The position numbers were made by a program, and so were the translations under genes. A DNA stretch of 64,000 nucleotides, from assembly GCA_031402225.1 (NCBI GenBank), contig JANNSD010000050.1, positions 8,405 through 72,404 of the forward strand, given 5' to 3'. The notes beneath the pieces were generated by a model that made no database searches, had not been told where the DNA came from, and was given only the letters and a program-made list of their open reading frames with translations. The stretch comes from Gemmatimonadota bacterium (GTDB taxonomy: Bacteria > Gemmatimonadota > Gemmatimonadetes > Gemmatimonadales > GWC2-71-9). Each line of letters starts with the position of its first letter. Position 1 is the stretch's first letter. Below, piece after piece: positions 3,336 through 57,856 of this stretch.

Positions 3336-3336
3336 C

Positions 3337-4647
3337 ATGGTCGCCATCGCCGCACGACCACTGCCCCTCGCCCCGCCCCTGACCGGTGCCGCGGTGTCCG
3401 AGGACCTCCCGCCGTTCCTGGTGCCGGCATCACACTTTCTGGTGGCGCTCGGGTGGCTCGTGGCCGGCAGCATCGGGCTGGTGCTGGTGTCACCGTCGCT
3501 GGCGCGCGGTGCCTGGCTGTCGCCCGGCATCGCGGCGACGGTGCACATGTTCACGCTCGGGTGGCTCGTCACGTCGGCCTACGGTGCCCTCTACCAGCTT
3601 GCGCCGGTGGTACTCGGGGTGCAGCCCAGGAGCCTGCGACTGGCGCCGGTGGTGCTGCTCCTGCACACGTCCGGGACTGCGCTGCTGGTGATCGGTCTCG
3701 GCCTCTGGACACCATTCTGTATCGCGGTCGGGTGGATTTCCGTCGCGGCGGCGCTGGCACTCTGGAGCTGGAATCTTGGCGGGGTCTTTCGTCGCTCGCT
3801 TCGCTCCCCGGTCATCGGCGCTCATGTCATGGCCGCGTACGCGGCCCTCTGGCTCACGCTGGGCCTGGCGGGGGTGCGCATCGGCAATGCCCTCGGGTGG
3901 TGGATGGTGGCGCGTGAGCCGCTCGTCGCGGCACATGTGCAGCTCGCGGCGGTGGGCTTCGGCGTGCTGCTGGTCATGGGACTGGGGAGCAGGCTCTTCC
4001 CGATGTTCCTGATGAACCGGAGCGCTACGACATGGCCTTCACGGTGGTGCGGCCCGCTCACCGCCGCCGGCGTGACGGCCCAGGTCGCTGGCTGGCTTGG
4101 CGCGCTCGACGCGCTGGTGACGGCCGGTGGACTGCTGGTGGCGGTGGGCGTCGCCCTGTTTCTTCTCCAGGCGCTGGTCTGGGTGCGCGCGCGCGCTCGC
4201 CGCGCGCTCGACTACCCGCTGCAGCAGCTGGTCGCGGCCTTCGTGCTGCTGGGTGCGGCACTGGTGACGGGGCTGGCGGCGCTCCGGTGGCCGGTCCCGC
4301 GGCTCGTCGGGGCGTACGGCGTGCTGCTGATCGTGGGGTGGATCACGCTCGTGATCGGTGCGGTGTATGGGCGCGTGCTGCCCTTCCTCACTTGGCTGGA
4401 GCGCTACAGCCCCCGAGCGGGGGTCCGGGCGGCGGGTCCCAGGGCGACCGACCTGCTGCCGCGATGGAGCACGCAGCTCTCCACGTCAGCCTGGACGATC
4501 GGCGTCGTCTTGCTTGCCGGGGCCGTCGCAGCCGGGCTGCCTCGCCTCGCGGCAGCAGGAGCATCGCTCTTTGCCCTGGGAAGCCTGATCGCCGCGCAGC
4601 AGTACCTCCGCCTGGTCCTGCCTGCACTCGGGAGCCATCCGGCATGA
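3337..4647 (+). CDS. Polytopic integral membrane protein, function unknown (possibly NnrS-like or heme-copper-type)
   Basis: ATG at 3337, one nt after the nosY stop. The track ORF start at 3184 would lie inside nosY. About 436 aa with 10-12 hydrophobic helices and conserved-looking His residues (VHMFTLGWLV, AAHVQLAAVG). The functional label rests only on inference from the neighbouring DUF2249 and nos genes. Confidence 0.75.
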   Translation: MVAIAARPLPLAPPLTGAAVSEDLPPFLVPASHFLVALGWLVAGSIGLVLVSPSLARGAWLSPGIAATVHMFTLGWLVTSAYGALYQLAPVVLGVQPRSLRLAPVVLLLHTSGTALLVIGLGLWTPFCIAVGWISVAAALALWSWNLGGVFRRSLRSPVIGAHVMAAYAALWLTLGLAGVRIGNALGWWMVAREPLVAAHVQLAAVGFGVLLVMGLGSRLFPMFLMNRSATTWPSRWCGPLTAAGVTAQVAGWLGALDALVTAGGLLVAVGVALFLLQALVWVRARARRALDYPLQQLVAAFVLLGAALVTGLAALRWPVPRLVGAYGVLLIVGWITLVIGAVYGRVLPFLTWLERYSPRAGVRAAGPRATDLLPRWSTQLSTSAWTIGVVLLAGAVAAGLPRLAAAGASLFALGSLIAAQQYLRLVLPALGSHPA

Positions 4648-4907
4648 CCCACGCGTTCGAAACACCGGTCACGTCACTCGATGTCAGGCCACTGCTGGCG
4701 GAGGGGACTGAGCCGTTCGAGGTGATCATGGCGGCGGTGGAATCACTGCCGCCGGGCGGCGTGCTCGAGCTCACGGCTCCGTTCGAGCCGGTACCCCTGT
4801 ACGCGGTACTGCGAGCCCGTGGCTTCGAGCACGTCGTGGTGCAGTCATCGGGGTCAATGCATGTCGTCCGCTTCTTTCGCCCGGGCCTCGACGGGCCTCC
4901 CGCCTGA
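4644..4907 (+). CDS. DUF2249-family small protein
   Basis: 87 aa from ATG 4644 (ATGA overlap with the previous stop). LDVRPLLAEGTEPFEVIMAAVESLPPGGVLELTAPFEPVPLYAVLRARGFEH matches my recollection of the DUF2249 pattern. The track shows this reading frame as a longer 291-aa ORF with a non-protein-like N-terminus. Confidence 0.7.
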   Translation: MTHAFETPVTSLDVRPLLAEGTEPFEVIMAAVESLPPGGVLELTAPFEPVPLYAVLRARGFEHVVVQSSGSMHVVRFFRPGLDGPPA

Positions 4908-5378
4908 TCCGCCTTGCCGATCATCCGAGGGTTGCTCCGGGACTGGCGGTGCGGCCTCCCGGCCGGAAGGTGGTGGACCATCCACCAACGGCACGAGGGA
5001 GAACTGGGCGCGGCCCCATGCGGCGGCATAGATGAGGGTCACGCTCCAGAGCCCGGGCACTCCTGCGAAGCTGTACGTCTCCAGCTGATACTCGAGCAAG
5101 GTCGAGTCAACCACGGAGCCCACCGCATCGCGGACCACGAGCAGGCCATACCCATGGGGAAGGAACGACTGGTGAATGGTCGTGAGGCGCTCCGCCGGGT
5201 TGTTCCAGGTAAACGTGACACGGTCGCTCACGTTCCTGAGGTCGGTGGCGATATAGGCGAGCGAGTCGCCGACCACCGTGACGCTCTCCTCGTTGCCGGG
5301 CTGGATCTCGTTGATGACCGAATCGACACAGCCGGTCGTACCGGCCGCGATCAGGAGCAGCAGGGTGAGATGGCGCAT
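4854..5378 (-). CDS. Lipoprotein, unknown function
   Basis: Internal start MRHLTLLLLIAAGTTGC (lipobox) at 5378 within the 431-aa track ORF. It starts 2 nt after the stop of the upstream minus-strand gene. The region upstream of this Met is Arg/Pro-rich junk antisense to that gene. Confidence 0.6.
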   Translation of the reverse strand: MRHLTLLLLIAAGTTGCVDSVINEIQPGNEESVTVVGDSLAYIATDLRNVSDRVTFTWNNPAERLTTIHQSFLPHGYGLLVVRDAVGSVVDSTLLEYQLETYSFAGVPGLWSVTLIYAAAWGRAQFSLVPLVDGPPPSGREAAPPVPEQPSDDRQGGSGGRPVEARAKEADDMH

Positions 5379-5380
5379 GA

Positions 5381-6877
5381 TCAGTCCCTCCACTGCGGGA
5401 TGGCGGTCGTCAGGTAGATGCGCAACGCGGTATTCTCGCGGCTCACGTTTGACCGCCCGTAGTAGTTGCTCCAGCGCCACAGCCAGTAGTAGTCCGCGCC
5501 CAGGCCCAGGCGTCCCCGCCAGTAGATCTTGCCCGTGAGTCCGGTGAAGAGCAGCTGATGATCGCCGGGGAAGCCGCTGATGATGGGCAGGAACACGTAA
5601 CGCGAATAGGCGCTGATCTGCGCCAATCCCGGCCAGATGATGGCGCCGTTCACCGTGCCGCCGAGCCCGATGCCGTAGTCGTAGTCCCGCCCTTCCTGCG
5701 TGAGGTAGAAGTCGGACTGGATCGCCGCCACCGGCATGAACTGGCCCAGCAGTTCGGCGCGCATCCGCGGCCCCTTCGCCGGACGGCGGCCGAGCACCGC
5801 GCCACCGTAGAACCCCTGGCCGCCGAACTCGATGATCGGGTTGGCGAGGTAGTCGTAGGTCATCATCACGGCGAGGTGGTTCAGCCCTCCGCTGCCAAGC
5901 TTCTTCGCACCCAGGCTGCCCCGAACCGTCAGTTCGGTGAGCGCGCCGGCGCTCCCGTTGTTCGTGGCCAGCGCCATCCGGACGCCGAAGGTGGAGAATG
6001 GCTTCTTCGCCAGGTCGAGAACGGGATCGCCGTAGGCAAGCTCGGCGATCACAACGGCGCCGTTCAGGACCTCGTTCTGGTTCTCGCCCGGCACGACGAG
6101 CCGGCGGTATCCGACATCGATGGCGGCGAAAACGGTCGATGGCCGCCACTCGGGCGGTGTTCGCGAGTGCTGCCAGGCCTCGCCCCGTACCACGCGATTG
6201 AACCCGCGCACCGGGTTGAGGATGCCCGCCGTCACCTCGCGCACCACCCGCTCGAACCCGTGGCTCTCATTCTTGAGCGTGAGGGAGGACACCCGGAAGA
6301 GCATTTCTCCGAGCGCGATGCCGCCAAGCGTCGTGTTGAGCAGGTCGTTGGGCGCTGGTGCCCACACCTCGCCGAACAGCTCCCAGGTGAGGCTGCCGGC
6401 GAACGCCCAGGGTGCCGACTGCCAGAAGTTGTACCCATTCGTGCGCCCGGCGTTGAAATACAGCGCGCCGTGGTAGGGATGGGCAAACTGGTTGTTCTTG
6501 AAGGCGTTGTTGTCCCACTGCCAAGGCAGCGTGAGGTTGTTGCCCCAGCTATTGAGGGACACCTTGGCCCACTCTGCATCGCTCGTGATGCGGCTGAACG
6601 CGTTCGGGATCACCTGCAGGGCCACGAGGTAGGCGGCGGCGACCCAGAAGTGCTTCTTCGGGTCGCACTGCGGACATGGGAGCGAATCCGGCTCAGCCAA
6701 GTGCGGCAAGGCCGCAGTCACGGCGCCTGGGGCCGAGAACCGCAGGTGCGGCGCCTCGACCTGCAGCCCGATGGTAACCGGGCTGTAGGGCGGTTGCTGG
6801 ACCTGCGCGGCCAGCGGGAACGCAAGCATGGTCGTCGCGGCGGCGACAATGATGCGCGTACGGCGATTGGGTGACAT
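5381..6877 (-). CDS. DUF3943-like secreted or outer-membrane protein
   Basis: 498 aa with a signal peptide (AAATTMLAFPLAAQ). The segment WDNNAFKNNQFAHPYHGALYFNAGRTNGYNFWQSAPWAFAGSLTWELFGE...PNDLLNTTLGGIALGEMLFRVS resembles the DUF3943 core as I remember it. The C-terminal half is rich in beta-strand-like G/Y segments. Confidence 0.7.
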   Translation of the reverse strand: MSPNRRTRIIVAAATTMLAFPLAAQVQQPPYSPVTIGLQVEAPHLRFSAPGAVTAALPHLAEPDSLPCPQCDPKKHFWVAAAYLVALQVIPNAFSRITSDAEWAKVSLNSWGNNLTLPWQWDNNAFKNNQFAHPYHGALYFNAGRTNGYNFWQSAPWAFAGSLTWELFGEVWAPAPNDLLNTTLGGIALGEMLFRVSSLTLKNESHGFERVVREVTAGILNPVRGFNRVVRGEAWQHSRTPPEWRPSTVFAAIDVGYRRLVVPGENQNEVLNGAVVIAELAYGDPVLDLAKKPFSTFGVRMALATNNGSAGALTELTVRGSLGAKKLGSGGLNHLAVMMTYDYLANPIIEFGGQGFYGGAVLGRRPAKGPRMRAELLGQFMPVAAIQSDFYLTQEGRDYDYGIGLGGTVNGAIIWPGLAQISAYSRYVFLPIISGFPGDHQLLFTGLTGKIYWRGRLGLGADYYWLWRWSNYYGRSNVSRENTALRIYLTTAIPQWRD

Positions 6878-43301: not shown

Positions 43302-44321
43302 GTGACCGCGGGTCACGGCAACCTGTTCGAGGAGCAGGAGCGCAACCGGCGTCGCTCCTTCTGGCTCGTGACCATCTTCGTGCTGTTCTTCGGCTGGGTC
43401 GGCTTCGGCGGAGACCTGGCCCTCTGCATCCTCACGTTGACAGCCGAACCAGGCGCTTACCGGCATGTCGTCCCGTTCATCGGCGTGGTGGCGACGGTCG
43501 TTGCCGGGGGCATCGCCTGGTTCGCGTGGGAGAAGGGCGCCGACCGGGTGCTGTGGGCCACCGGCGCGTGGGAGGTCATCGAGCCGGCCACGCCGGAGCA
43601 GACGCAGTACGTCAACGTGGTGGAGGAGATGGCCATCGCCGCGGGCCAGCCGCGTCCCCGCATCTGGGTGGTGCCCGATCCCGATCCCAATGCGTTCGCG
43701 ACCGGCCGGGATCCGCAGCACGCGCACATCGCGGTGACGGAAGGCCTGCTCGCTCGGCTCAACCGGGAAGAACTGCAGGGTGTCGTGGCGCACGAGATGG
43801 CGCACATCGCCAACTGGGACACCCGCCTGATGACGCTGCTGGCCGCGATGCTGGGTGCGATCGCGCTGATGTCCGACGGGATGGGGCGGATGACGCGCGG
43901 TGGCGTCCGCGTCGGCGGGAGCGGCCTGCGCGGCGAGGGGAAGGGCAAGGGCAACCCGCTTGGGCTCGTGCTGTTGGTGCTCTGGGTCTTCTCCCTCCTC
44001 ATCGCTCCGGTGGTCTCGCGACTCCTCGCCATGGCGGTGAGCCGGAAGCGCGAGTTCCTGGCGGATGCCACGGGGTCGCAGTTCACCCGGAACCCGCTGG
44101 CCCTGGCATCGGCGCTGGAGAAGCTGGAGACGGAGCCCGCACCCACCCGGAGCATTACCCGGGGTGCGGCGCACCTCTGTATCGTGGATCCGGCGGAACG
44201 GAAGATGTCGGAACGGGGCGGTTTCGTGGGCGATGTCTTCGCCTCACATCCACCGATGCGGGAGCGGGTGGCGCGGCTGCGGGGCATGGGCTATCAGTCG
44301 TCGGTCGTCAGTCGTCAGTGA
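43302..44321 (+). CDS. M48-family (HtpX-like) zinc metalloprotease
   Basis: HEMAHIANWD (HExxH), a downstream EFLADATG, and 4 TM segments. It is paired with lemA, as is common. The last 8 codons (QSSVVSRQ) are encoded by the heptamer repeat array. Confidence 0.9.
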   Translation: MTAGHGNLFEEQERNRRRSFWLVTIFVLFFGWVGFGGDLALCILTLTAEPGAYRHVVPFIGVVATVVAGGIAWFAWEKGADRVLWATGAWEVIEPATPEQTQYVNVVEEMAIAAGQPRPRIWVVPDPDPNAFATGRDPQHAHIAVTEGLLARLNREELQGVVAHEMAHIANWDTRLMTLLAAMLGAIALMSDGMGRMTRGGVRVGGSGLRGEGKGKGNPLGLVLLVLWVFSLLIAPVVSRLLAMAVSRKREFLADATGSQFTRNPLALASALEKLETEPAPTRSITRGAAHLCIVDPAERKMSERGGFVGDVFASHPPMRERVARLRGMGYQSSVVSRQ

Positions 44322-44366
44322 GTCGGCGGTTCACTCATGACTCACGACTCGCGACTCACGACTCGC
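44295..44366. repeat. Inverted arrays of heptamer repeats (SAGTCGT x3-4 / GACTCRC x4) forming a hairpin between convergent genes
   Basis: The left arm is cagtcgt cggtcgt cagtcgt cagtgagtc, followed by a 14-nt spacer, and the right arm is gactcac gactcgc gactcac gactcgc. The arms are imperfect reverse complements. Both flanking genes end inside the arrays. Confidence 0.85.
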
Positions 44367-45435
44367 CGTCATCCGAATCATCAAGGAACGTCAGCGCCTG
44401 CCGCCGCTTCACCACCGCCTCGAGTGCGCCGTGTACCCGCTCGTCCACCACGGCATTGATCAGGTCACGCATCCGCTCCACGGCCATGTCGGGCGGCATT
44501 TTTTCCTGATACGGACGCGCCGTGGTCAGCGCATCGAAGATCTCCACCGCCCCCACGATGCGCGCGCCGAGCGGGATCGCCTCCGCCTTGAGCCTGTCGG
44601 GGTAGCCGAAGCCGTCCCAGCGCTCGTGGTGGTTCCGCACGAAGCTGATGATGTCCTTCAGGTGCACCAGCGGGGCCAGGATCTGGCTGCCCACCAGCAC
44701 GTGCTGCTTCACGTGGGCGTACTCGTCGTCGGTGAGCGGGCCCTGCTTGTTCAGCACTTCCTCGCGAATACCGATCTTCCCGATATCGTGCAGCCTGCCC
44801 GCCGTGCGAATCAACTCCACGTCTTCATCCGACAGGCCAAGCTCCGCCGCCACGCCCGCTGAGAGATCGGCCACCCGCGCCGAGTGACCGCGCAGGTAGG
44901 CATCCTTGGCCTCGAGGGCGTTGACCAGCGCCTCGAGCGTCGCGATGGACAGCCGCTCGAGCGTTTCCTGTTCCCGCCGCAGCTCCACCGACCGGAGGTG
45001 GACTTCGTCGCTCAGCCAGCGCGCAATGCGCGTGTCCTCCAGCGCCTTGTGCCGCCGCTGCAGGGCCCGGCTCACCGCGCGCGTGAGGTGATCGAGGTCG
45101 AGGGGCTCGGTGACGTAATCCATCGCCCCGCGCTGCACGCAGAGGGCGGCCGTGGTGGCGTCGTGTACTGCAGTGAGCATCAGGATGGCGAGGCTGGGCT
45201 CGAGCTCGAGCAGGGCAGGCACCAGCTCAATGGCGCTCGTGCCCGGCAGGTGCGTATCCAGGAGCATGGCCGCGACCTTTTCGCGGCGCACGATGTCGAG
45301 CGCCTCGGCGCCCGTGCTGGCGGTGAGAATGGAATGACCCTGGAGCCTGAGCTGGCGGGCAATCGCCGTGCGGACCGACTCCTCGTCATCGACGACGAGG
45401 ATACTTGACTGGCCGTCGCTGAGAGGCAGGGTCAC
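44356..45435 (-). CDS. Response regulator with HD-GYP phosphodiesterase domain (RpfG-like)
   Basis: REC domain (ILVVDDEESV, AMLLDTHLPG) plus HD-GYP motifs (HSARVADLS, RLHDIGKIGI, HHERWDGFGYPDRL). Confidence 0.9.
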   Translation of the reverse strand: MTLPLSDGQSSILVVDDEESVRTAIARQLRLQGHSILTASTGAEALDIVRREKVAAMLLDTHLPGTSAIELVPALLELEPSLAILMLTAVHDATTAALCVQRGAMDYVTEPLDLDHLTRAVSRALQRRHKALEDTRIARWLSDEVHLRSVELRREQETLERLSIATLEALVNALEAKDAYLRGHSARVADLSAGVAAELGLSDEDVELIRTAGRLHDIGKIGIREEVLNKQGPLTDDEYAHVKQHVLVGSQILAPLVHLKDIISFVRNHHERWDGFGYPDRLKAEAIPLGARIVGAVEIFDALTTARPYQEKMPPDMAVERMRDLINAVVDERVHGALEAVVKRRQALTFLDDSDDGES

Positions 45436-46328: not shown

Positions 46329-46363
46329 GCGTCCTCGAGGAGCGTTGTTTCTCCGTCTTCCGT

Positions 46364-47176
46364 CTAGCGTCTTCCGGTCAAGTACTCGTCGATGACAGGC
46401 TTGTGCTCGCTGTACTCGGGACGGTCGGCCCGGCCGATCTCCGCCTGGTAGTGGGCCATGAAATCCTTCCGGGCGGCTGCCGCGGTGGCAGCATCCCGTC
46501 GGCGATCGGCCACCTCGCCGCGGACGAGGTACCCGAACAGGTGATTCGAGTTCTGCGCCAGGATGGTGTCGGCGAGTGCCAGCGCCGCGGCATCCTGGCC
46601 TGACTCGGCGTAGAGCACGGCGGCATGGTAGCGAAGGTCGGCGGTCACCGAGTCCAGCATCCCGTACGCCAGGATGGCCATGGGCGTGAACTGCCGCGCC
46701 TGGGCGCTGTCTCCGGCGGCGGCGGCGCGCATCACGCGATCATAGAGCCGGTTGAACCGCTCCGCGGGCGACATGCTCGAGATGTCGGGCGGCGTGCCGG
46801 CCGGGCTCGTCGGCGCGTCACCGGCGTCTCCGCCCTGCGCTCCCGGCGCGGCATTGCCGACGTTCGGCATCCGGGCCACTTCCGGCGCGCTGTTGCGATT
46901 GATACCCAGGAACGCGATGTACGAGAGCCCGGCGATCACCAGGATGCCCGCGACGAGCCATGGCGTCCGGCTCTCGCGCGCCGGCGCTGGGGGACGGTCG
47001 GGGGCACCGCCGACCGCCACGCCACAGCGATGGCAGAATTTCGCAATGGGCGAGAGCCCGGCGCCGCACGCGGCACAGGTCCGCGGGCCGACAGCGGCTC
47101 CACAGCGATCACAGAATCGACCGGGAGCGTCGGTGCCGCAGACGGGGCAGGCGGGGACGGCTGGAGAGGCAGGCAC
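46364..47176 (-). CDS. Double zinc-ribbon, single-TM, TPR-like protein
   Basis: CPVCG..CDRCG and CAACG..CHRCG form a double zinc ribbon. One TM helix (PWLVAGILVIAGLSYIAFLGI) is followed by a helical repeat C-terminus. GTG 47176 is a guessed start, because the track N-terminus (to 47413) is not protein-like. Confidence 0.6.
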   Translation of the reverse strand: MPASPAVPACPVCGTDAPGRFCDRCGAAVGPRTCAACGAGLSPIAKFCHRCGVAVGGAPDRPPAPARESRTPWLVAGILVIAGLSYIAFLGINRNSAPEVARMPNVGNAAPGAQGGDAGDAPTSPAGTPPDISSMSPAERFNRLYDRVMRAAAAGDSAQARQFTPMAILAYGMLDSVTADLRYHAAVLYAESGQDAAALALADTILAQNSNHLFGYLVRGEVADRRRDAATAAAARKDFMAHYQAEIGRADRPEYSEHKPVIDEYLTGRR

Positions 47177-47587
47177 GGGCGCGCAATGTAACCGCTGGCG
47201 GCTCCAATGGCACCGTATTACCGTGCAGGGCGATCGCCATTCGCGACCGGGCACGACTGGAGGGATATTGCAGCCATCGCGGAACACGCCTGAGCCCCTT
47301 CCGGCCGATGACCCGCTGGGCCGCTCTCTCGGAGAGCTTGCGCGGGGAGAATCGCGCTGGACCGTTTTCCTGGAGACCCGCCCACACCCACGGGGCACCG
47401 GTCTTCGCCACAATACGCTTCAGGGCCGGCTCCACTTCGTGGACCAGGTTCAGGTCCAGCGGAGCACTGGGTGGATCTTCACCGAGTGGACCGACGCCGA
47501 TATCGTCAACCGATTCAACGAATTCAGCGCTGCGGAGCTTTGGCTGCTGCTCGACAGCCTGGCCTGACCCGCTGACAGCGAGGGGCC

Positions 47588-48988: not shown

Positions 48989-49786
48989 GTGCGACCCGCC
49001 GGCATTCTCTGCGACCTCGAAGGCACCCTCTATTCGGGTGACACGCCACTCCCCGGGGCGACGCGGCTGGTTCCCGCGCTCCGCGCGCAGGGTATCCCCT
49101 TCCGATTCGTCACCAACACCACCAGCCGGTCGCGCCGGCTGCTCGTGGCGCGCCTGGCGGCGATGGGCATCGCGGTCTCGATGGACGAGATCGTGAGTGC
49201 GCCGATTGCCGGCGCCTCGCTGGCGCGCGAACACGGGCATCGGATCGTCGCCCCGTTCCTTGCGGAGGCGGTGCTGGAAGACCTCGAGGGACTCGAGCTG
49301 TGTGGAGGAACCGTCGCGCGGGCGGGAGGCCGCCCGACCGCCATCATCTTCGGCGACCTCGGCGAGCACTGGAGCTACGGCCTGTTGCAGCAAGCATACG
49401 AGCACCTGCGGGACGGCGCCGAGTTCATCGCCTGCTCGTGCGACCGGGTCTATCGCAAGGCCGACCGGCTCGTGCTCGACGCCGGGCCGTTCGTCGCGGC
49501 GCTCGAGTACGCCAGTGGCCGCACGGCACAACTCGCGGGAAAGCCGGGTCCGGTCATCTATGACACGGCGATCCGCCAGCTCCAGCTGCCCGATGCGGTG
49601 CGCGCGCAGGTGGTGATGATCGGTGACGATATGCATTCCGACATTGCCGGCGCGCAGCAGGCGGGACTCGTTGCGTGGGCCGTCGAGACAGGCAAGTTCT
49701 CCGCCGCCGCCGCCGTCCGTGCAGGGATCGCCCCCGACCGCATCATTCCCGGGCTCGAGACGCTGCTGGCGGAACTAGGCGCGTGA
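48989..49786 (+). CDS. HAD-superfamily IIA hydrolase (NagD-like)
   Basis: ILCDLEGTLY (DxxGT-type nucleophile motif variant), FVTNTTSRSR, GKPGP, MIGDDMHSDIAGA. Confidence 0.85.
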   Translation: MRPAGILCDLEGTLYSGDTPLPGATRLVPALRAQGIPFRFVTNTTSRSRRLLVARLAAMGIAVSMDEIVSAPIAGASLAREHGHRIVAPFLAEAVLEDLEGLELCGGTVARAGGRPTAIIFGDLGEHWSYGLLQQAYEHLRDGAEFIACSCDRVYRKADRLVLDAGPFVAALEYASGRTAQLAGKPGPVIYDTAIRQLQLPDAVRAQVVMIGDDMHSDIAGAQQAGLVAWAVETGKFSAAAAVRAGIAPDRIIPGLETLLAELGA

Positions 49787-51354
49787 TCGCCCGCCCGGCG
49801 GGGCTCGTCGCCGCATTCCTGCTGCTGGCCGTGCCTCTCGCCGCGCAGGACGCTGAGCCGCCTGCGGGTGTACCCGTCGTGCAGTACCTCGACATCGTCC
49901 GGGAGGATATCGCCGACAGCAACGAGACCGGCTTTGCCGCAAAGGCGGCGAACGCGCTGCATGTCCGCACGCGCCAGCGCGTGGTGGAGCGCGAGGTGCT
50001 GCTCAAGCCGGGCATGCCATACGATTCGATCCTCGCGGCTGAAACCGCGCGGAACCTCCGGGCCCTCGGCATCTTCCGGGACGTCCTGGTGGACACGGTA
50101 CGGAGCGACAGCGGGCTCACCCTTCGCGTGGTGACGAAGGACGGCTGGAGCACCTTTCCGATCTTCAACATTACGACCGCGGCGGGACAGTCCGCGTTCG
50201 CCCTCGGGGCCGCAGAGGGGAACCTCCTCGGCCTGGCGGCCCTCGGGCTGATCCGCTACAGCAGCAATCCCGACCGCACCGCGTGGCTGTTTGCGTTCCG
50301 GCAGCCCCGCCTCTTTGCGGGGCGCGTCAATCTTGGACTTTCCGTTGAGGAGCGCTCCGATGGCCGCGCCATCGCCGGCCAGCTCGGCATGCCGTTCTAC
50401 TCCATTGCCAGTCGCTGGGCCCTGGGCGGTGACGCAACCTACTTCGACGGGGATGTCCTCGTGTTCGCCGACGGCGTCCTCACGCCGGACCAGACGCTGT
50501 CGCGCCAGTACACCCTCGTGCGCGTGGACGGAGCGAAGGCGCTCAAGGCGTCGCCCAGGGGATACGTGCGGGCCGGTGTCACCGCCCAGCTGGAATCGAA
50601 TTCATTCCTCCCGAGCCCCGTCACCGTGCCACGCATCGATACGACGCAGGTTGCCGTCGGTGCCTATGTCAACGTCCTCCGCGCGCGCTTCGCCCTCGTG
50701 CGCAACGTGCGCAGTTTCGGGAGGGAGGAAGACTTCGCCATCGGCCAGAACGTTCGCGTTGGACTGCTCGCCGCCCCCTCGGCGTTCGGCTATGCGGTGA
50801 ACGGCGTCGGCCTGCAGCTTGCCGCCTCGACCGGATTCCGCTTTCCGGGCGGGCTCGCGCAGCTGAGTGCTACGGCCAATGGTCTTGTCACCGGTTCGGG
50901 TGTCGACTCCGGGTCGGTCGTGCTCAAGGGAAACCTCGTCGTCCAGCCAGATACGAAGAACGCGATCATCGTCGGCGGCTTCGTGGGCCGGCAGAAGAAT
51001 CCGGTGCCCGGACGCCAGTTCGACCTGGGCCTGGTGTATGGACTACGGGCCTATCCGCTGCATGCGTTTGTGGGCGACCGGGGGTTCCTGGTCGCCGCGG
51101 AGTATCGCTGGACCTTCACGGAGAATTTCGGCGGCCTGCTTGGCCTCGCCCTCGGCACATTCGTGGACTACGGTGGTGCATGGTATGCCGGGGAGTCACC
51201 GCGCACCGGCACGGACCTGGGTGCCGGGCTGCGCTTCGGTCCGAGTCGCTCGGCCAGTCCGGTCCTGTTCCGGCTCGACGTGGCCTATCGCTTCGAGGCG
51301 GCGCCGTTCACGGCCGGGTGGTCGATCGTCTTCGGCGAGGGATTCACGTTCTAG
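49783..51354 (+). CDS. BamA/D15-like outer-membrane protein (POTRA + surface-antigen barrel)
   Basis: GTG 49783 overlaps the HAD stop. Signal peptide AAFLLLAVPLAAQD, a POTRA-like segment (VLLKPGMPYDSILAAETARNLRALGIFRDVLVD) and a C-terminal beta-barrel ending in FGEGFTF. Confidence 0.85.
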   Translation: MIARPAGLVAAFLLLAVPLAAQDAEPPAGVPVVQYLDIVREDIADSNETGFAAKAANALHVRTRQRVVEREVLLKPGMPYDSILAAETARNLRALGIFRDVLVDTVRSDSGLTLRVVTKDGWSTFPIFNITTAAGQSAFALGAAEGNLLGLAALGLIRYSSNPDRTAWLFAFRQPRLFAGRVNLGLSVEERSDGRAIAGQLGMPFYSIASRWALGGDATYFDGDVLVFADGVLTPDQTLSRQYTLVRVDGAKALKASPRGYVRAGVTAQLESNSFLPSPVTVPRIDTTQVAVGAYVNVLRARFALVRNVRSFGREEDFAIGQNVRVGLLAAPSAFGYAVNGVGLQLAASTGFRFPGGLAQLSATANGLVTGSGVDSGSVVLKGNLVVQPDTKNAIIVGGFVGRQKNPVPGRQFDLGLVYGLRAYPLHAFVGDRGFLVAAEYRWTFTENFGGLLGLALGTFVDYGGAWYAGESPRTGTDLGAGLRFGPSRSASPVLFRLDVAYRFEAAPFTAGWSIVFGEGFTF

Positions 51355-51424
51355 GACGTGAGGACGTGAAGCGTTCACGAGCTCGCCATGACATTAGATT
51401 GTGGAACCCCTTAACCTCAGGCCT

Positions 51425-53207: not shown

Positions 53208-54618
53208 GGGGGTTCACTGGGACCAGCGCCCCCTGGCGCTCATCCGTGGCGATCGCGTGGCCCTCGCCACGACACAGGCCGCCTCACACGGCATCCGGCA
53301 CGGCATGTCCATCCCTGCGGCGCGAGCGATGTGCGCCGGGCTGGAGGTGCGGCCCTGGGACGACCGCGCGATCGGCCGGGCCATGCACCGGGTAACAGCC
53401 GCGTGCCTCGCCCTCAGCCCGCAGGTGACACCGGCGCGTCCAGGTTTCTGGTGGATCGGTGCGCATGGGCTCGAGGGTCATGGTGGCGAGGACAACCTCA
53501 TCCGATCGCTCCTCGCATGCGCCCGGCGCTGGCACCCTGGTGCCCGCGTGGCCGTGGCGTCGAGCTGCATCGCTGCCTCGGTGGCTACCTGGCTTCGCGG
53601 TACCGGCCGCCTCGTGCCGCGTGGCGAAGACCAGGCGCTGCTCGCCCAGGCGCCGCTCTCCCTCCTTCCCATGCACACCGAGTTGCGCGAAACCCTCGCG
53701 GCACTGGGCCTGGGGACGGCGGGGCAGCTCGCCGCCCTCGATCCCGGCGATGTCGAACAGCGCTTCGGTCCCGCCGGACTCGCGGCCTGGCGCCTGGCGC
53801 GGGGCGAGGACCAGCGGCGGCCCACCCTCACGCGTCCCGTGCCCGACGATACCGTCGCCATCGAGCTTCCAACGTCCGCCGAGACACGTGAGCCGGTGCT
53901 CTTCCTGGTGCGCGCGGCGCTGGGGCGGCTGATCACGCAGGTCGCGAGCGACGGGATGGCGGTGGCGGCGCTGGAAGTGGAACTGATGCTCGATGTGTCG
54001 CCGGCCCGGTCGGTAGCGCGACGCATGACCCTGGCATTCCCGCTCGCCCGCCTGGAACCGCTGTTCGAGCACTGCCGGGCGGTGCTCGAGGACTGGGCGC
54101 TCGAGGCGCCGGTGCTCGGCGTTGTCGTGCGCATCACCGAGCGCGCCAGGCCTGCCGCTGCGCAGGGCGACCTGCTGCGCACCGGCTGGCGTGATCCTGC
54201 CGCGGCGGAGGCGGCGTTCGCCCGCCTCCGCGCGGCGCTCGGTGCCGATGCCGTGGTGCGCCCTGCATCCCGCGATGGATTCGCACCTGAGCGACGTGGT
54301 GCCTGGGAGGAAGGGCGCGATCGGGAGGCGAAGTCACCTGCCGCCTTGCCGCCTTGTCATCCTGCCGCTCCTCATCCTGCCGCTCCTTTGCGCCTGCTCG
54401 AGCCACCGGAGCCGGTCGAGGTCGCGCCCGACACCAGCGCTTTCACCTGGCGCGGACGGCGCTGGCCCATCACCGAGCGGGGCAGCGTGGAGCGGCTCTC
54501 CGGCGACTGGTGGGCGTCCCCCTATGCCCGTGACTACTCCTCCTGGACCAGTGAGGGAACGGCGTTCGTGGTGTTCCTGAGCGGGGAGACGTGGAATGTC
54601 CACGGGTGGTATGACTGA
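53131..54618 (+). CDS. imuB: ImuB, Y-family DNA polymerase-like protein
   Basis: The N-terminus IRVACVRIPKFPIGAV and overall UmuC/DinB-like architecture, in the imuA/dnaE2 context. GTG 53131 (or TTG 53119) overlaps the imuA 3' end by about 77-89 nt. It contains one in-frame octamer module (AALPPCHPAAPHPAAP). Confidence 0.85.
   Translation: MSSSIRVACVRIPKFPIGAVWLEDGKGVHWDQRPLALIRGDRVALATTQAASHGIRHGMSIPAARAMCAGLEVRPWDDRAIGRAMHRVTAACLALSPQVTPARPGFWWIGAHGLEGHGGEDNLIRSLLACARRWHPGARVAVASSCIAASVATWLRGTGRLVPRGEDQALLAQAPLSLLPMHTELRETLAALGLGTAGQLAALDPGDVEQRFGPAGLAAWRLARGEDQRRPTLTRPVPDDTVAIELPTSAETREPVLFLVRAALGRLITQVASDGMAVAALEVELMLDVSPARSVARRMTLAFPLARLEPLFEHCRAVLEDWALEAPVLGVVVRITERARPAAAQGDLLRTGWRDPAAAEAAFARLRAALGADAVVRPASRDGFAPERRGAWEEGRDREAKSPAALPPCHPAAPHPAAPLRLLEPPEPVEVAPDTSAFTWRGRRWPITERGSVERLSGDWWASPYARDYSSWTSEGTAFVVFLSGETWNVHGWYD
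54338..54386 (+). repeat. Octamer-built repeat module, copy B1 (inside imuB)
   Basis: ctgccgcc ttgccgcc ttgtcatc ctgccgct, then cctcatc ctgccgct. Read in frame as PAALPPCHPAAPHPAAP. Confidence 0.9.
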
Positions 54619-57600
54619 CGCCGTCCAGCCATCCGATTACGTCGAGCTGCACTGCCACTCCTGCTTCTCGCTGCTCGACGGGGCGACCTCGCCCGAGGGG
54701 CTGGTCGATCGCGTCCACATGCTGGGCCAGCGCGCGCTGGCGCTCACCGACCATGCCGACCTGGGTGGTGCCGTACGGTTCTCCGAGGCAGGGCGCGCGC
54801 GGGGCGTGGAGACGATCGTCGGGGCCGAACTCGACATTTCCTTTCCTGCCGCCTTGCCGCCTTGTCATCCTACCGCCGTCGTCCTGCTCGCCGAGTCCAG
54901 CACCGGCTATGCGAACATTGCCACCCTTGTCACACGCGCGCGCATGGATTGCCCGCGGGGCGAGCCCGCCGTTCCGCTCGACCTGCTCGCGCGCCATGCC
55001 GATGGCGTCACCGCGCTCACTGGTGGCCCGCGAGGATGGCTGCCGTCACATCTCGCGGCCGGCAACGTGGAGGGTGCGCGCCATGCGGCGCGCGCGCTCC
55101 ACGATATCTACGGCGACCATCTCGTCATCGAGTGCTGGGATCACGGACTTCCCGAGGAAAAGGCCCTCGTTGCCCAGCTCATTCCGCTCGCCGCATGGCT
55201 CGGCGTGCCATGGGTCGTGGCGAATGACGTGCGCTACGCCCGCCCGCAGGATCGCCGGGTATACGACGTGCTCGCGGCGCTCAGGCACAAGAGGACCCTC
55301 GACCAGATGGGCACGCGCCTCCGTCCCAATGGCGAGTGGTACCTCAAGTCGGCAGCGCAGATGGCGCGCCGCTGGCGCCATGCCCCGGCAGGGGTGCGTG
55401 CCACCCGCGCCGTGGCAGAACGGTGTGCCTTCCGCCTCGAGCAGCTGCGCCCGACGCTGCCGGCGTTTGCCCTGCCGCCTGGTGTCGGGGAGGATGAGTA
55501 CCTGGAGCGGCTGGCCATGCAGGGCCTCGAGGAGCGCCTCTCTCACGACTCACGACCCACGACTCACGACTCGTCGGCCCATCGCACCCAGCTGGCCCAC
55601 GAGCTCACCATCATCGCGCGCCTGGGGCTCGCCGGCTTCTTCCTCATCGTCTGGGACATCGTGCGCTTCGCGCGGCGTAACGGCATCCTCTGCCAGGGGC
55701 GCGGCTCCGCCGCCAACTCCGTGGTCTGCTACTGCCTGGGCATTACTGCGGTCGACCCGGTGAGGATGAATCTTCTCTTCGAGCGGTTCCTGAGCGAGGA
55801 GCGCGCCGAGCCGCCCGATATCGACCTCGATATCGCGCATCGCGAACGGGAACGGGTGCTCCAGTACGTCTATGAGCGCTATGGGCGCGAGCATGCGGCG
55901 ATGGTGTGCGAGCAGATCAGCTGGCGGGGGCGCAGCGCCGTCCGCGACACGGCGCGCGTGCTCGGCTTCAGCGTGCAGCAGGCCGGGGCACTCGCGGCGT
56001 TCAGCGACCGGTTTTCCGCGAAGGCGACGGTCGACACATCCGTCTTCACCAAGGCCGGCCTCGACCCGGCCGACCCGCGTGTTGCCCTGCTCGCCGACCT
56101 GGTCGCGGGCCTGCACCAGTTGCCACGGCACCGCTCCATCCATGTCGGCGGCTTCGTCCTGACCCGTGAGCCGCTGTCGCGCATCGTGCCCATCGAGCCG
56201 GCGTCGATGCCGGGCCGCACGGTGATCCAGTGGGAAAAGGACGACCTCGGTCCCGTCGGCCTGGTGAAGATCGACCTGCTCGGGCTCGGCATGCTCACGC
56301 TGCTGCAGGATTGCCTGCTCTACATCAATCGCACGCGCGGGGTGTCGCTCGATCTCGGCACCATCCCGGTGGACGACCAGGCGGTGTACGACGACCTCTG
56401 CCGCGCCGATACCATCGGCCTCTTCCAGGTGGAGAGCCGCGCCCAGATGAACACCCTCCCGCGCCTCAAGCCGCGCGCGTTCTACGACCTCGTCGTCGAG
56501 GTGGCGCTCATCCGTCCCGGGCCCATCCAGGGAGACATGGTGCACCCGTTCCTCCGTCGCCGTGCGGGACTCGAGGAGGTCACCTATCCCCATCCCTCCC
56601 TCGAACCGGCCCTCAAGCGCACCCTTGGCATTCCGCTCTTCCAGGAGCAGGGTATGCAGGTCGCTATCGCAGCGGCAGGGTTCACGCCCGGTCAGGCCGA
56701 TGAGCTGCGCCGCGCCATGGGACACAAGCGTTCCCACGAGCGCATGGCCGGGATCGCCGACCAACTGGTGGAGGGGATGGCGAAGAACGGCATCGATGCC
56801 GACACGGCGCGACGGATCTACCAGCAGATCAGCGCCTTCGCCGACTACGGATTTCCCGAGAGCCACGCCGCGAGCTTCGCGCTGCTGGTGTATGCCTCGG
56901 CCTGGCTCCGGCACTACTACCAGCCCGAATACACGGCCGCGATCCTCAACGCGCAGCCGATGGGCTTCTATTCTCCCGGGACACTGGTGGAGGATGCCCG
57001 CCGTCACGGCGTAGAGGTGAGGCCGGTGGATGCGCTGCACAGCAGCTGGGACGCGAGCCTCGAGCGCCGTGACTCACGACTCACGACTCACGACTCTCCT
57101 GCCGTGCGACTCGGTTTCCGCTCCATCCGCGGACTCGGCTCTGCCGCACGCGAGAAGATCGAGCGCGCCCTCAATGAGCGGCCGTTCAGCACCGTAGCCG
57201 ATGTGGTGAGCCGCACTGGACTCGACCGCGGCGCGCTGCGCGCGCTCGCGGAAGCGGGAGCGCTCGACAGCCTGGTGCAGCATGAATCACCCGAGCGTCG
57301 CCGGCGCATGGCATTGTGGGAAGTGCTGCGCGCCGAGCGCGGGGTCGCTGGTCCTTTTGCCACCTTGCCGCCTTGCCGCCCTGCCGCCTTCCTGCCACCA
57401 ATGACGCCGTACGAACTGACCGAAGCGGATTATCGAATGACTGCCCTCTCACTCAATGGGCATCCGATGGCACATCTTCGGAAGGAAATGCGGCGCATCG
57501 GCGTTACGGCGGCGAATGACCTGCTTCCTCCTGCCGCCCTGCCGCCCTGTCATCCTGCCGCTCCCAGGGACGGAGCGACGGTTCTCGTCGCGGGGCTCGT

Positions 57601-57856
57601 CATCTGCCGCCAGCGCCCCGGTACCGCCAAGGGGTTTGTCTTCCTCACCCTCGAGGACGAAACCGGGCTGGTGAACGTCATCGTGACGCCAAAGCGCTTC
57701 GAGCAGCAGGCGCTGCTCATTGCGCGGAGCCCCTTGCTGCTGGTACGCGGGACCTTGCAGATCGAGGGGCGTGTGGTGAACGTGCGCGGGGAGGAGTTCC
57801 GCCTCCTCAACGCTCCCGTGGGCGCCGAGCATGCCCGCCGACACGATTTTCATTGA
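54596..57856 (+). CDS. dnaE2: Error-prone DNA polymerase III alpha subunit DnaE2 (ImuC)
   Basis: PHP domain YVELHCHSCFSLLDG, polymerase core (LVKIDLLGLGMLT, IALIRPGPIQGDMV, LFQEQ), an OB-fold C-terminus, and a position after imuB. It contains five in-frame short-repeat insertions. Confidence 0.95.
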   Translation: MSTGGMTDAVQPSDYVELHCHSCFSLLDGATSPEGLVDRVHMLGQRALALTDHADLGGAVRFSEAGRARGVETIVGAELDISFPAALPPCHPTAVVLLAESSTGYANIATLVTRARMDCPRGEPAVPLDLLARHADGVTALTGGPRGWLPSHLAAGNVEGARHAARALHDIYGDHLVIECWDHGLPEEKALVAQLIPLAAWLGVPWVVANDVRYARPQDRRVYDVLAALRHKRTLDQMGTRLRPNGEWYLKSAAQMARRWRHAPAGVRATRAVAERCAFRLEQLRPTLPAFALPPGVGEDEYLERLAMQGLEERLSHDSRPTTHDSSAHRTQLAHELTIIARLGLAGFFLIVWDIVRFARRNGILCQGRGSAANSVVCYCLGITAVDPVRMNLLFERFLSEERAEPPDIDLDIAHRERERVLQYVYERYGREHAAMVCEQISWRGRSAVRDTARVLGFSVQQAGALAAFSDRFSAKATVDTSVFTKAGLDPADPRVALLADLVAGLHQLPRHRSIHVGGFVLTREPLSRIVPIEPASMPGRTVIQWEKDDLGPVGLVKIDLLGLGMLTLLQDCLLYINRTRGVSLDLGTIPVDDQAVYDDLCRADTIGLFQVESRAQMNTLPRLKPRAFYDLVVEVALIRPGPIQGDMVHPFLRRRAGLEEVTYPHPSLEPALKRTLGIPLFQEQGMQVAIAAAGFTPGQADELRRAMGHKRSHERMAGIADQLVEGMAKNGIDADTARRIYQQISAFADYGFPESHAASFALLVYASAWLRHYYQPEYTAAILNAQPMGFYSPGTLVEDARRHGVEVRPVDALHSSWDASLERRDSRLTTHDSPAVRLGFRSIRGLGSAAREKIERALNERPFSTVADVVSRTGLDRGALRALAEAGALDSLVQHESPERRRRMALWEVLRAERGVAGPFATLPPCRPAAFLPPMTPYELTEADYRMTALSLNGHPMAHLRKEMRRIGVTAANDLLPPAALPPCHPAAPRDGATVLVAGLVICRQRPGTAKGFVFLTLEDETGLVNVIVTPKRFEQQALLIARSPLLLVRGTLQIEGRVVNVRGEEFRLLNAPVGAEHARRHDFH
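54846..54877 (+). repeat. Octamer-built repeat module, copy B2 (inside dnaE2)
   Basis: ctgccgcc ttgccgcc ttgtcatc ctaccgcc. It differs from B1 at 2 nt and is read as PAALPPCHPTA. Confidence 0.9.
55540..55574 (+). repeat. Heptamer array, copy A2 (inside dnaE2)
   Basis: ctctcac gactcac gacccac gactcac gactcgt, read in frame as SHDSRPTTHDSS. Confidence 0.9.
57071..57098 (+). repeat. Heptamer array, copy A3 (inside dnaE2)
   Basis: gactcac x3 then gactctc, read in frame as DSRLTTHDS. Confidence 0.9.
57357..57396 (+). repeat. Octamer array, copy B3 (inside dnaE2)
   Basis: ttgccacc ttgccgcc ttgccgcc ctgccgcc ttcctgcc, read as TLPPCRPAAFLP. Confidence 0.85.
57531..57562 (+). repeat. Octamer-built repeat module, copy B4 (inside dnaE2)
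   Basis: ctgccgcc ctgccgcc ctgtcatc ctgccgct. It differs from B1 at 2 nt and is read as AALPPCHPAAP. Confidence 0.9.

What the first reader, a model, noticed from the sequence alone, without database searches (positions are those of the whole stretch)
44295..44366. Heptanucleotide tandem repeats (GACTCAC family) form an inverted-array hairpin that also encodes the C-termini of two convergent genes
Left arm: cagtcgt cggtcgt cagtcgt cagtgagtc. Right arm: gactcac gactcgc gactcac gactcgc. The arms are imperfect reverse complements separated by 14 nt.

The htpX-like gene ends inside the left array, giving the tail QSSVVSRQ. The HD-GYP gene ends inside the right array.

The same heptamer array recurs, in direct orientation and in frame, at two sites inside dnaE2: 55540-55574 (SHDSRPTTHDSS) and 57071-57098 (DSRLTTHDS). 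Dispersed tandem heptamers recall cyanobacterial STRR sequences. I am not aware of an equivalent described for this kind of genome.
Basis: seen in the sequence. Interest (0 to 1): 0.6.

Follow-up and report, generated by a model that had tools for sequence, protein, structure and literature searches.

The report
Dispersed 7/8-base tandem repeats, Gemmatimonadales
The hairpin between two converging genes is one of about 275 short 7- or 8-base tandem-repeat arrays scattered through this soil Gemmatimonadales genome; the arrays change fast and write junk tails and loops into proteins, much like repeats already described in cyanobacteria and Xanthomonas.

Summary
At 44295-44366 a (CAGTCGT)3-CAGTGAGTC array faces a (GACTCAC/GACTCGC)4 array across 14 nt. 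The M48/HtpX-like gene ends in the left arm (tail SSVVSRQ*) and the RR-HD-GYP gene ends in the right arm (ES*). dnaE2 carries the same heptamer in frame at two sites.

It is not a local oddity. The genome holds 173 heptamer and 101 octamer arrays of at least 3 copies, against 16-26 for periods 5, 6 and 9. Nearly all are variants of one core, GAGNCGK. About 70% lie outside or only partly inside genes. All 36 inverted pairs have the GAGNCGK arm on the 5' side, and several wrap a canonical terminator.

Half of 80 other Gemmatimonadota dnaE2 loci carry their own 7/8-mer arrays. At this junction, close relatives have no array, an octamer array, a direct heptamer array (95% nt identity) or the same pair with a 14-nt difference. 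The repeat-encoded peptides are lineage-specific insertions.

No RAYT, reverse transcriptase or conserved flanks were found.

Best reading: slippage-driven, STRR/Xanthomonas-like repeats filtered by stop codons and reading frame. Any terminator role is unproven and is not conserved here. This is a new member of a known kind.

The parts
44295..44324 (+). Left arm: (CAGTCGT/CGGTCGT)x3 + CAGTGAGTC, in the GAGNCGK-like orientation. It encodes the HtpX-like tail (Q)SSVVSRQ and supplies its TGA (44319-21).
44325..44338 (.). 14-nt spacer or loop (ggcggttcactcat) between the arms.
44339..44366 (+). Right arm: (GACTCAC GACTCGC)x2, a perfect 14-nt double unit x2. On the minus strand it encodes E-S-stop of the HD-GYP gene (stop 44356-58). 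It is 14 nt longer than in relative L110.
43302..44321 (+). M48/HtpX-like metallopeptidase gene. The conserved C-terminus ends at ...RLRGM(A/G)YQ and the rest is repeat-derived.
44356..45435 (-). Response-regulator HD-GYP gene, convergent with the peptidase gene. The conserved end is ...TFLDD(S/D).
55542..55572 (+). In-frame (CTCACGA)x4.4 array in dnaE2 (SHDSRPTTHDSS). It lies in the variable PHP-palm linker and is absent in G006 and G001.
57071..57096 (+). In-frame (GACTCAC)x3.7 array in dnaE2 (DSRLTTHDS). It aligns to a gap in Taq Pol III alpha. The same site holds an octamer array in G001 and G010, and an inverted heptamer pair in G003.
54596..57856 (+). dnaE2, part of the imuA-imuB-dnaE2 cassette. 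It hosts the two heptamer arrays and four octamer-derived modules.
46352..46376 (-). A further family member: a (GGAAGAC/GGAGACG)-type heptamer array. It overlaps the stop (46364-66) of the minus-strand gene 46364-47413, in GAGNCGK orientation relative to that gene.
51353..51369 (+). A further family member: octamer GACGTGAG/GACGTGAA x2.1 directly after the TAG of gene 49675-51354. It is present in G010 and G006 and absent in G003 and G001.

Best explanation
The locus is one instance of a genome-wide superfamily of hepta- and octanucleotide simple-sequence repeats. The core is GAGNCGK, with complement MCGNCTC. The variants include GAGTCGT, GAGACGG, GAGGCGT, CAGTCGK and the octamer GAGGACGT. 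This kind of repeat is typical of this Gemmatimonadales lineage.

Two such arrays in opposite orientation have colonised the junction of two converging genes, which was probably ancestrally almost empty (1-15 nt in the two array-free relatives). They overwrote the last codons of both genes. Because the GTGAGTC orientation carries TGA, they also supply both stop codons.

Arrays grow and shrink by whole units through slipped-strand mispairing. They are replaced on a very short evolutionary time scale.

Selection acts only as a filter.

- Inside genes, only stop-free orientations survive, only with length changes that are multiples of 3 nt, and only in tolerant loops or tails. This is why the peptides read SSVVSRQ, DSRLTTH and so on.
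- At gene ends the stop-bearing orientation dominates.

The hairpin formed by the two arms is a by-product of this colonisation. It may add to transcription termination or 3'-end stability for both genes, but it is not a conserved or required element at this junction.

Shown: the anatomy, the genome-wide family, the context and orientation rules, the lineage specificity, the unit-number change and replacement between relatives, and the absence of transposase, RT or conserved flanks.

Inferred: slippage as the mechanism, how the same motif reaches new sites, and any effect on transcription.
For: - Period spectrum of arrays with at least 3 copies: p5 20, p6 26, p7 172, p8 101, p9 16, p10 and above about 0.
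- Family table, and hybrid arrays that show families converting into each other.
- Context: 81 of 274 arrays lie wholly in CDS although 87% of the genome is coding. 53 arrays overlap gene 3' ends only, 51 of them in the stop-bearing orientation.
- The 80 dnaE2 loci of other Gemmatimonadota hold 85 heptamer and 38 octamer arrays against 1 hexamer array. Motifs are lineage-specific.
- The same junction in the genus: G008 has a 1-nt spacer and no array, G001 has no array, G006 has an octamer array, G010 has a direct (AGACTCT)4 array, and G003 and G004 have diverged heptamers.
- L109, at 95% nt identity, has a quite different direct array. L110 has the same pair with the right arm two units (14 nt) shorter.
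- HtpX tails after the conserved MAYQ run from 0 to 13 aa among homologues of 79-96% identity.
- Three dnaE2 sites are occupied by different families in different species. All length differences are multiples of 3.
- Hairpin stability at the junction ranges from -36 to -2.6 kcal/mol across relatives.
- No Y1_Tnp/RAYT, no RVT_1, no conserved flanks, no Rfam family.
Against: - Slippage alone does not explain how the same 7-mer comes to sit at more than 60 separate loci, nor why orthologous sites are re-occupied by unrelated motifs.
- All 36 inverted pairs share one polarity (GAGNCGK arm 5'), and pairs avoid divergent intergenic regions (1 of 22). Both hint at a structured process or selection that a purely neutral model does not predict.
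- About 13% of the few canonical terminator hairpins are flanked by arrays, roughly 20-fold more than chance.
- No read-level data could be obtained to show ongoing slippage.
- Gene calls were made with a crude home-made caller.
Confidence: 0.75

Rival explanations
1. The inverted array pairs are selected, U-tract-independent bidirectional transcription terminators or mRNA 3'-end protectors. The fixed polarity (GAGNCGK arm first, pyrimidine-rich arm last on both strands) mimics the A-tract / stem / U-tract layout of bidirectional terminators. The hairpin at 44295-44366 then ends both convergent transcripts.
For: - 36 of 36 pairs share one polarity, as do about 80% of pairs in other Gemmatimonadota.
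- At least 7 pairs enclose a canonical GC hairpin + T-run.
- Pairs lie downstream of a gene end in 28 of 29 intergenic or gene-end-overlapping cases, and only 1 lies in a divergent region.
- The genome has only about 61 strict canonical terminators.
- Pair stabilities run from -37 to -106 kcal/mol.
Against: - There is no U-tract at this locus.
- The hairpin is not conserved at this junction. Relatives with 1-19 nt spacers or direct arrays manage without it.
- Most arrays are single, and single arrays show no orientation bias relative to transcription (24 vs 26).
- The G-U versus A-C mismatches in pairs do not track the transcribed strand (by eye).
- No RNA data were available.
Confidence: 0.2
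2. The arrays are, or are carried by, a non-autonomous mobile element that inserts as a unit. Candidates are a MITE, a REP/BIME mobilised by a RAYT, or a Rickettsia-palindromic-element-like insert.
For: - The elements are dispersed and have the same sequence at many loci.
- They form palindromic pairs.
- They insert in frame into protein loops, as RPEs do.
- Different families occupy the same sites, which could reflect insertion hotspots.
Against: - There is no conserved core or flank, and inner sequences differ between pairs.
- Copy number varies by whole units.
- No Y1 transposase and no reverse transcriptase is found in a 99.9%-complete genome.
- No target-site duplications were seen.
Confidence: 0.05
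3. The arrays are contingency loci. A change of plus or minus one unit (7 or 8 nt) switches genes such as dnaE2 and imuB on or off, or tunes promoters. That is phase variation.
For: The unit length is not a multiple of 3. Arrays sit inside the error-prone polymerase genes. SSR-based switching is well known in Haemophilus and Neisseria.
Against: - Arrays are short (3-5 units).
- Every interspecies length difference inside dnaE2 is a multiple of 3, and all orthologues are intact.
- At gene 3' ends the stop-bearing orientation stops all three frames, so slippage changes only the tail.
- The hosts are housekeeping genes.
- An earlier follow-up on the octamer modules reached the same conclusion.
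Confidence: 0.04
4. The arrays are binding sites for a sequence-specific protein or form non-B DNA (G-quadruplex) with a regulatory role, as proposed for GGGAATC repeats in Xanthomonas and TAACTGA repeats in Beggiatoaceae.
For: The (CGGGAGA)n family with at least 4 units fits a G3N4 quadruplex pattern. The motifs share the core GAGNCGK. Precedents are PMC4692102 and PMC4679880.
Against: - GACTCAC/GTGAGTC at this locus has no G-runs.
- Motifs differ from lineage to lineage, and even at the same site, which does not fit a conserved binding protein.
- There is no positional preference for promoters.
Confidence: 0.04

Closest known systems
GGGAATC heptamer SSRs of Xanthomonas (Rehm et al. [quoted passage not shown] 2007, as cited there)
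   Same: - Hundreds of dispersed, mostly intergenic heptamer arrays of about 4 units in a high-GC genome.
- 70-75 inverted pairs in 'convergent orientation' that can form stem-loops.
- A minority of arrays are intragenic.
- Length and sequence differ between closely related species while the site is often kept.
- No known mobilising enzyme.
- A slippage / polymerase-footprint hypothesis has been proposed.
   Different: - Different phylum and different motif.
- Here there are several inter-converting variants plus a derived octamer, not one motif.
- The variant at this locus cannot form G-quadruplexes.
- About 30% of arrays lie wholly inside genes and are translated.
- Orthologous sites are re-occupied by unrelated motifs.
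Cyanobacterial STRR sequences (short tandemly repeated repetitive heptamers of heterocystous cyanobacteria; from established knowledge, and PMC4692102 for Calothrix and Nostoc)
   Same: Tandem heptanucleotides, dispersed and lineage-specific, with unknown function.
   Different: The consensus sequences are unrelated. The cyanobacterial genomes are low-GC. Few inverted pairs are reported in Nostoc (PMC4692102).
TAACTGA direct repeats of marine Beggiatoaceae (PMC4679880)
   Same: About 170 sets of 2-6 tandem heptamers per genome, patchily distributed across phyla, with no evident transfer mechanism.
   Different: They sit just upstream of start codons and are almost never inverted. A single motif is shared between phyla. 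A role in translational regulation has been proposed.
Rickettsia palindromic elements, and tandem repeats of Borg elements (PMC9879509), as sources of in-frame protein insertions
   Same: Repeat DNA settles in frame in permissive, probably disordered protein segments and creates lineage-specific peptides.
   Different: RPEs are roughly 100-150-bp elements with a conserved sequence. Borg repeat units inside genes are multiples of 3. Here the unit is 7 or 8 nt, and the reading frame is kept only through multiples of three units or compensating length.
REP/BIME elements with RAYT transposases
   Same: Short, dispersed, hairpin-forming extragenic sequences, often found at gene ends.
   Different: There is no RAYT gene. 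There is no fixed palindromic core, and the arms are pure tandem repeats of variable copy number.

Membership tests
Dispersed heptameric SSRs (STRR-like / Xanthomonas-like long SSRs) | Head-to-tail repeats of a 7-nt unit, at least 3 copies | tested here: met
   TRF and own scan
Dispersed heptameric SSRs (STRR-like / Xanthomonas-like long SSRs) | The same unit at many unlinked loci, with period 7 far in excess of neighbouring periods | tested here: met
   172 arrays of period 7 (plus 101 of period 8) against 16-26 for periods 5, 6 and 9. 65 arrays belong to the CGACTCA family. 104 pattern hits against 0 for the control.
Dispersed heptameric SSRs (STRR-like / Xanthomonas-like long SSRs) | Enriched outside coding sequence | tested here: met
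   Only 81 of 274 arrays lie wholly in CDS, against 87% coding. The gene calls are crude.
Dispersed heptameric SSRs (STRR-like / Xanthomonas-like long SSRs) | Copy number and sequence vary between close relatives | tested here: met
   A 14-nt (2-unit) difference against L110, a different array at 95% nt identity (L109), and turnover across 5 congeners.
Cyanobacterial STRR1-3 proper | STRR consensus heptamers (CCCCAGT and the like; recalled, not in the tools) | tested here: not met
   The units here are GACTCAC, CGTCTCC, GCCTCAC and so on.
G-quadruplex-forming heptamer repeats (Xanthomonas/Nostoc type) | At least four G3 tracts per array | tested here: not met
   GTGAGTC/GACTCAC has no G-runs. 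Only the separate CGGGAGA family fits the pattern. Folding was not assayed.
REP/BIME-RAYT system | A RAYT (Y1 transposase) gene in the genome | tested here: not met
   PF01797: no hit in the 99.9%-complete genome, while the control genomes were positive.
MITE | Conserved termini or core, and target-site duplication | tested here: not met
   The flank consensus is empty for the three main families, and inner sequences of pairs are all different.
Intrinsic (Rho-independent) terminator | A GC-rich hairpin followed directly by a U-tract | tested here: not met
   The hairpin is present, but there is no T-run and the consensus scan finds none at 43800-44900. A U-tract-independent mode is not testable here.
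Phase-variable contingency locus | Out-of-frame and in-frame alleles coexist, or orthologues differ by a non-multiple of 3 | tested here: not met
   All interspecies differences in dnaE2 are multiples of 3 and the genes are intact. The population level was not testable.

The most novel reading that the evidence does not exclude
A dedicated process that has not been described would explain the pattern. It would need neither a transposase nor a reverse transcriptase. It would seed 7/8-nt arrays at hairpin flanks and gene ends with a fixed polarity. It would repeatedly overwrite old arrays with whichever motif is currently dominant in the genome. The result would be U-tract-independent bidirectional terminators throughout Gemmatimonadota.
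Probability: 0.12. Interest if true: 0.7.

Novelty: new member of a known kind. Interest (0 to 1): 0.4.

Why it matters
It extends the still-unexplained excess of heptameric tandem repeats, known from cyanobacteria, Xanthomonas and Beggiatoaceae, to a whole, poorly studied soil phylum. It also adds three clean rules that any mechanism must explain:

- one motif superfamily (GAGNCGK) that includes a derived octamer;
- a single polarity for all hairpin-forming pairs;
- re-use of the same sites by unrelated motifs, with turnover even at 95% DNA identity.

There are practical consequences.

- The arrays break short-read assemblies: 19 arrays lie at contig ends against about 6 expected.
- They create spurious-looking protein tails and inserts that annotators and aligners should discount.
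- They could serve as strain-level markers.

For the two genes at this locus the effect is probably small: a 7-residue tail on the peptidase and 2 residues on the HD-GYP protein.

Tried and rejected
- A metagenome scan with a conserved 23-mer from the HD-GYP gene gave one contig, identical at the junction to the G004 allele. This says that allele is stable between two assemblies, but nothing about the window's own strain.
- RAYT and reverse transcriptase were both absent.
- Conserved flanks or a MITE core: none.
- Rfam: only a sub-threshold chance hit.
- Canonical promoter or terminator at the locus: none.
- RNA-level compensation: G-U versus A-C mismatches in pairs did not follow the transcribed strand (inspected by eye). 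I do not claim selection on RNA.
- A restriction/methylation-site idea: GANTC lies in GACTC, CGTCTC is a type IIS-like site, and the Gemmatirosa methylome lists unrelated motifs. I had no way to test it and dropped it.
- A weaker RNA:DNA hybrid for the pyrimidine arm as the cause of the polarity: rough nearest-neighbour values recalled from memory favour it for the CGGGAGA and octamer families but not for GACTCAC. It was left as a speculation.
- The Mrazek 2007 paper is not held in the library. It is cited only through PMC4692102.

Full report
**What is there.** It has three CAGTCGT-type units plus CAGTGAGTC, then 14 nt, then GACTCAC GACTCGC GACTCAC GACTCGC. Tandem Repeats Finder reports both arrays, and reports the right arm as a perfect 14-nt double unit x2.

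The ORF 43302-44321(+) is an M48/HtpX-like peptidase. The ORF 44356-45435(-) is a receiver-HD-GYP protein. The peptidase reads through the left arm (QSSVVSRQ) and stops at the TGA of its last unit. The HD-GYP gene takes its last two codons and its stop from the right arm. The two stop codons are 34 nt apart.

The arms belong to two sub-variants (GACTGAC and GACTCAC). The hairpin therefore has one mismatch per unit. MFE is about -36 kcal/mol on either strand, z about -3.

dnaE2 (54596-57856, in an imuA-imuB-dnaE2 cassette) carries the same heptamer in frame at 55542-55572 and 57071-57096.

**Genome-wide picture.** The window is part of a 3.6-Mb, 67.6% GC, 201-contig genome. Counting arrays of at least 3 copies by period gives 20 (p5), 26 (p6), 172 (p7), 101 (p8), 16 (p9) and essentially none above.

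- The heptamers fall into CGACTCA (65), CGTCTCC (47, plus 8 CGTCTTC), CGCCTCA (15), CGACTGC (10) and minor variants.
- The octamers are mostly CACGTCCT (73) and CACGTCTT (16).
- Read on the other strand, these are GAGTCGT, GAGACGG, GAGGCGT, CAGTCGG and GAGGACGT. That is one core, GAGNCGK, with the octamer differing by one inserted base.
- Hybrid arrays in which one variant runs into another are common.
- (GACTCAC)3 with up to 1 mismatch occurs 104 times, against 0 for the reversed control.
- 19 arrays lie within 200 nt of contig ends, where about 6 are expected. Longer arrays have probably broken the assembly.

**Context rules.** I used a crude codon-bias gene caller (2895 genes, 87% coding).

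- 81 of 274 arrays lie wholly inside genes.
- 77 overlap a gene end: 53 a 3' end only, 12 a 5' end only, and 12 two gene ends at once.
- 106 are intergenic and 10 are at contig ends.
- Inside genes, the families whose GAGNCGK orientation contains TGA occur only in the opposite, stop-free orientation. The CGGGAGA family has no stop on either strand and occurs both ways. This is what a selection filter on randomly arising arrays predicts, because a 7- or 8-nt period visits all three frames.
- At gene 3' ends, 51 of 53 overlapping arrays are in the stop-bearing orientation. This includes all four cases in the window.
- Single intergenic arrays between co-directional genes show no orientation bias (24 vs 26).

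**Inverted pairs.** 36 loci, plus the one in the window (which fell below my 3-copy threshold), have two arrays of the same family in inverted orientation within 200 nt. MFE runs from -37 to -106 kcal/mol.

- In all 36, the 5' arm is in the GAGNCGK orientation. The opposite arrangement was never seen.
- At least seven pairs enclose a canonical GC hairpin followed by a T-run, and the inner sequences are all different.
- Pairs lie downstream of at least one gene in 28 of 29 intergenic or gene-end-overlapping cases, and only once between divergent genes.
- The genome has only 61 strict terminator-like hairpins. Eight of them have an array within 40 nt (0.6% expected), always GAGNCGK-type on the 5' side and the complement on the 3' side.
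- Other Gemmatimonadota show the same polarity in about 30 of 37 pairs. The exceptions lie mostly inside dnaE2.
- I cannot explain this polarity with confidence. Part of it may follow from the stop-codon filter at gene ends.

**Relatives.** DnaE2 homologues identify the organism as Gemmatimonadales/Gemmatimonadaceae. The best relatives are MAGs of 88-91% DnaE2 identity.

In 651 kb around dnaE2 from 80 Gemmatimonadota genomes there are 85 heptamer and 38 octamer arrays, but only 1 hexamer and 5 pentamer arrays. Each lineage has its own motifs. GACTCAC itself is patchy within the genus.

The junction between the peptidase and HD-GYP genes is syntenic in the genus. Its states are:

| Genome or contig | State of the junction |
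|---|---|
| G008 | Stops 1 nt apart, no array (the sequence tatcagTGAgTCAtga holds a single GTGAGTC) |
| G001 | 15-nt spacer, no array |
| G006 | Octamer array |
| G010 | Direct (AGACTCT)4 array |
| G003, G004 | Diverged heptamers |
| L109 (95% nt identity over 1.3 kb) | Direct array GGGTCTA GGGTCCA GAGTCCA GAGTCCA GACTCTA GACTCTA; the alignment to the window stops exactly where the array starts |
| L110 (85% nt identity) | The same inverted pair, with the right arm exactly 14 nt shorter |

Among homologues of 79-96% identity, the peptidase tail after the conserved ...RLRGMAYQ is 0-13 residues long with unrelated sequences. Hairpin stability at the junction ranges from -36 to -2.6 kcal/mol, so a hairpin is not a conserved requirement here.

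**dnaE2.** The repeat-encoded peptides lie in indel hotspots that are absent from distant orthologues. DSRLTTHDS aligns to a gap in Taq Pol III alpha.

At three sites, different congeners carry different motifs: CCGCTCA, ACCGTTC, GGGAACA, an inverted GAACGGT/CGTTCAC pair, and the octamer GGCAAGGC. The boundaries are the same in each species, and the length differences are always multiples of 3.

**Mechanism.**

- Shown: the arrays are pure tandem repeats without conserved flanks. No RAYT and no reverse transcriptase is encoded. Whole-unit changes and complete replacement occur between close lineages.
- Inferred: growth and shrinkage occur by slipped-strand mispairing. The published idea is that a 7-nt unit matches the polymerase's contact length (cited in PMC4692102).
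- Also inferred: the inverted partner may arise by template switching at hairpins.
- Unexplained: how one motif spreads to dozens of loci, and why sites are re-used.

**Comparison with what is known.** Heptameric SSR excess in bacteria, cyanobacterial STRRs, the Xanthomonas GGGAATC arrays with 70-75 inverted pairs in 'convergent orientation' and rapid interspecies change, and the Beggiatoaceae TAACTGA repeats are the same kind of thing.

I found no paper describing it in Gemmatimonadota. Earlier notes of this scan describe the same repeats elsewhere in this genome.

**Verdict.** This is a real feature and a new member of a known kind. It is of moderate interest, mainly for the polarity rule and the site re-use.

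**Limits.** No read or RNA data were available. The gene calls are home-made. The relatives' genomes were only sampled.

Noticed in passing
window 54339-54387, 54847-54864, 57357-57390, 57530-57561: Octamer-derived modules (TGCCGCCT / CCTGCCGC) lie in imuB and dnaE2 and give the peptide AALPPCHP twice in DnaE2. At the 54847 site, four congeners carry four different heptamer arrays instead. An earlier follow-up of this scan treated these modules.
   Followed up: partly
genome contigs outside the window, e.g. C34:63810, C39:5348/5386, C74:2634-2782 (five copies 37 nt apart); none in C50: A second dispersed element, CATCCTGAGCG(A/C)AGCGAAGGATC, has 59 copies at up to 4 mismatches. It often occurs in inverted pairs about 38 nt apart and is sometimes flanked by octamer arrays (for example inside a Ser/Thr kinase linker on C34).
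   Followed up: partly
whole genome: Only 61 hairpin + T4-run terminator-like sites were found with strict criteria in 3.6 Mb. The Shine-Dalgarno signal upstream of called starts is weak (G rises only to about 0.40 at -11 to -8).
   Followed up: no
genome contigs C29:3888-6392 and C34:61985-64540: Two paralogous Ser/Thr kinase-beta-propeller genes share an identical first ~140 nt that includes a GACTCAC array. Both sit at contig ends. The C34 copy has octamer arrays in the linker where the C29 copy has a CCCGCCCA-type stretch.
   Followed up: partly
relative L045 (DATMBT010000550.1), 943-6238: A composite unit, (CGAGTCA)4 followed by (CGATTCC)4-5, recurs at four or more places within 7 kb, including inside dnaE2. 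This is a higher-order repeat built from two heptamer families.
   Followed up: no
window 44316-44345 versus G008 locus L086: The array-free relative has tatcagTGAgTCAtga at the junction. The two opposed stop codons form one GTGAGTC / TGAGTCA unit, which is a possible proto-repeat seed for the arrays seen in other species.
   Followed up: no
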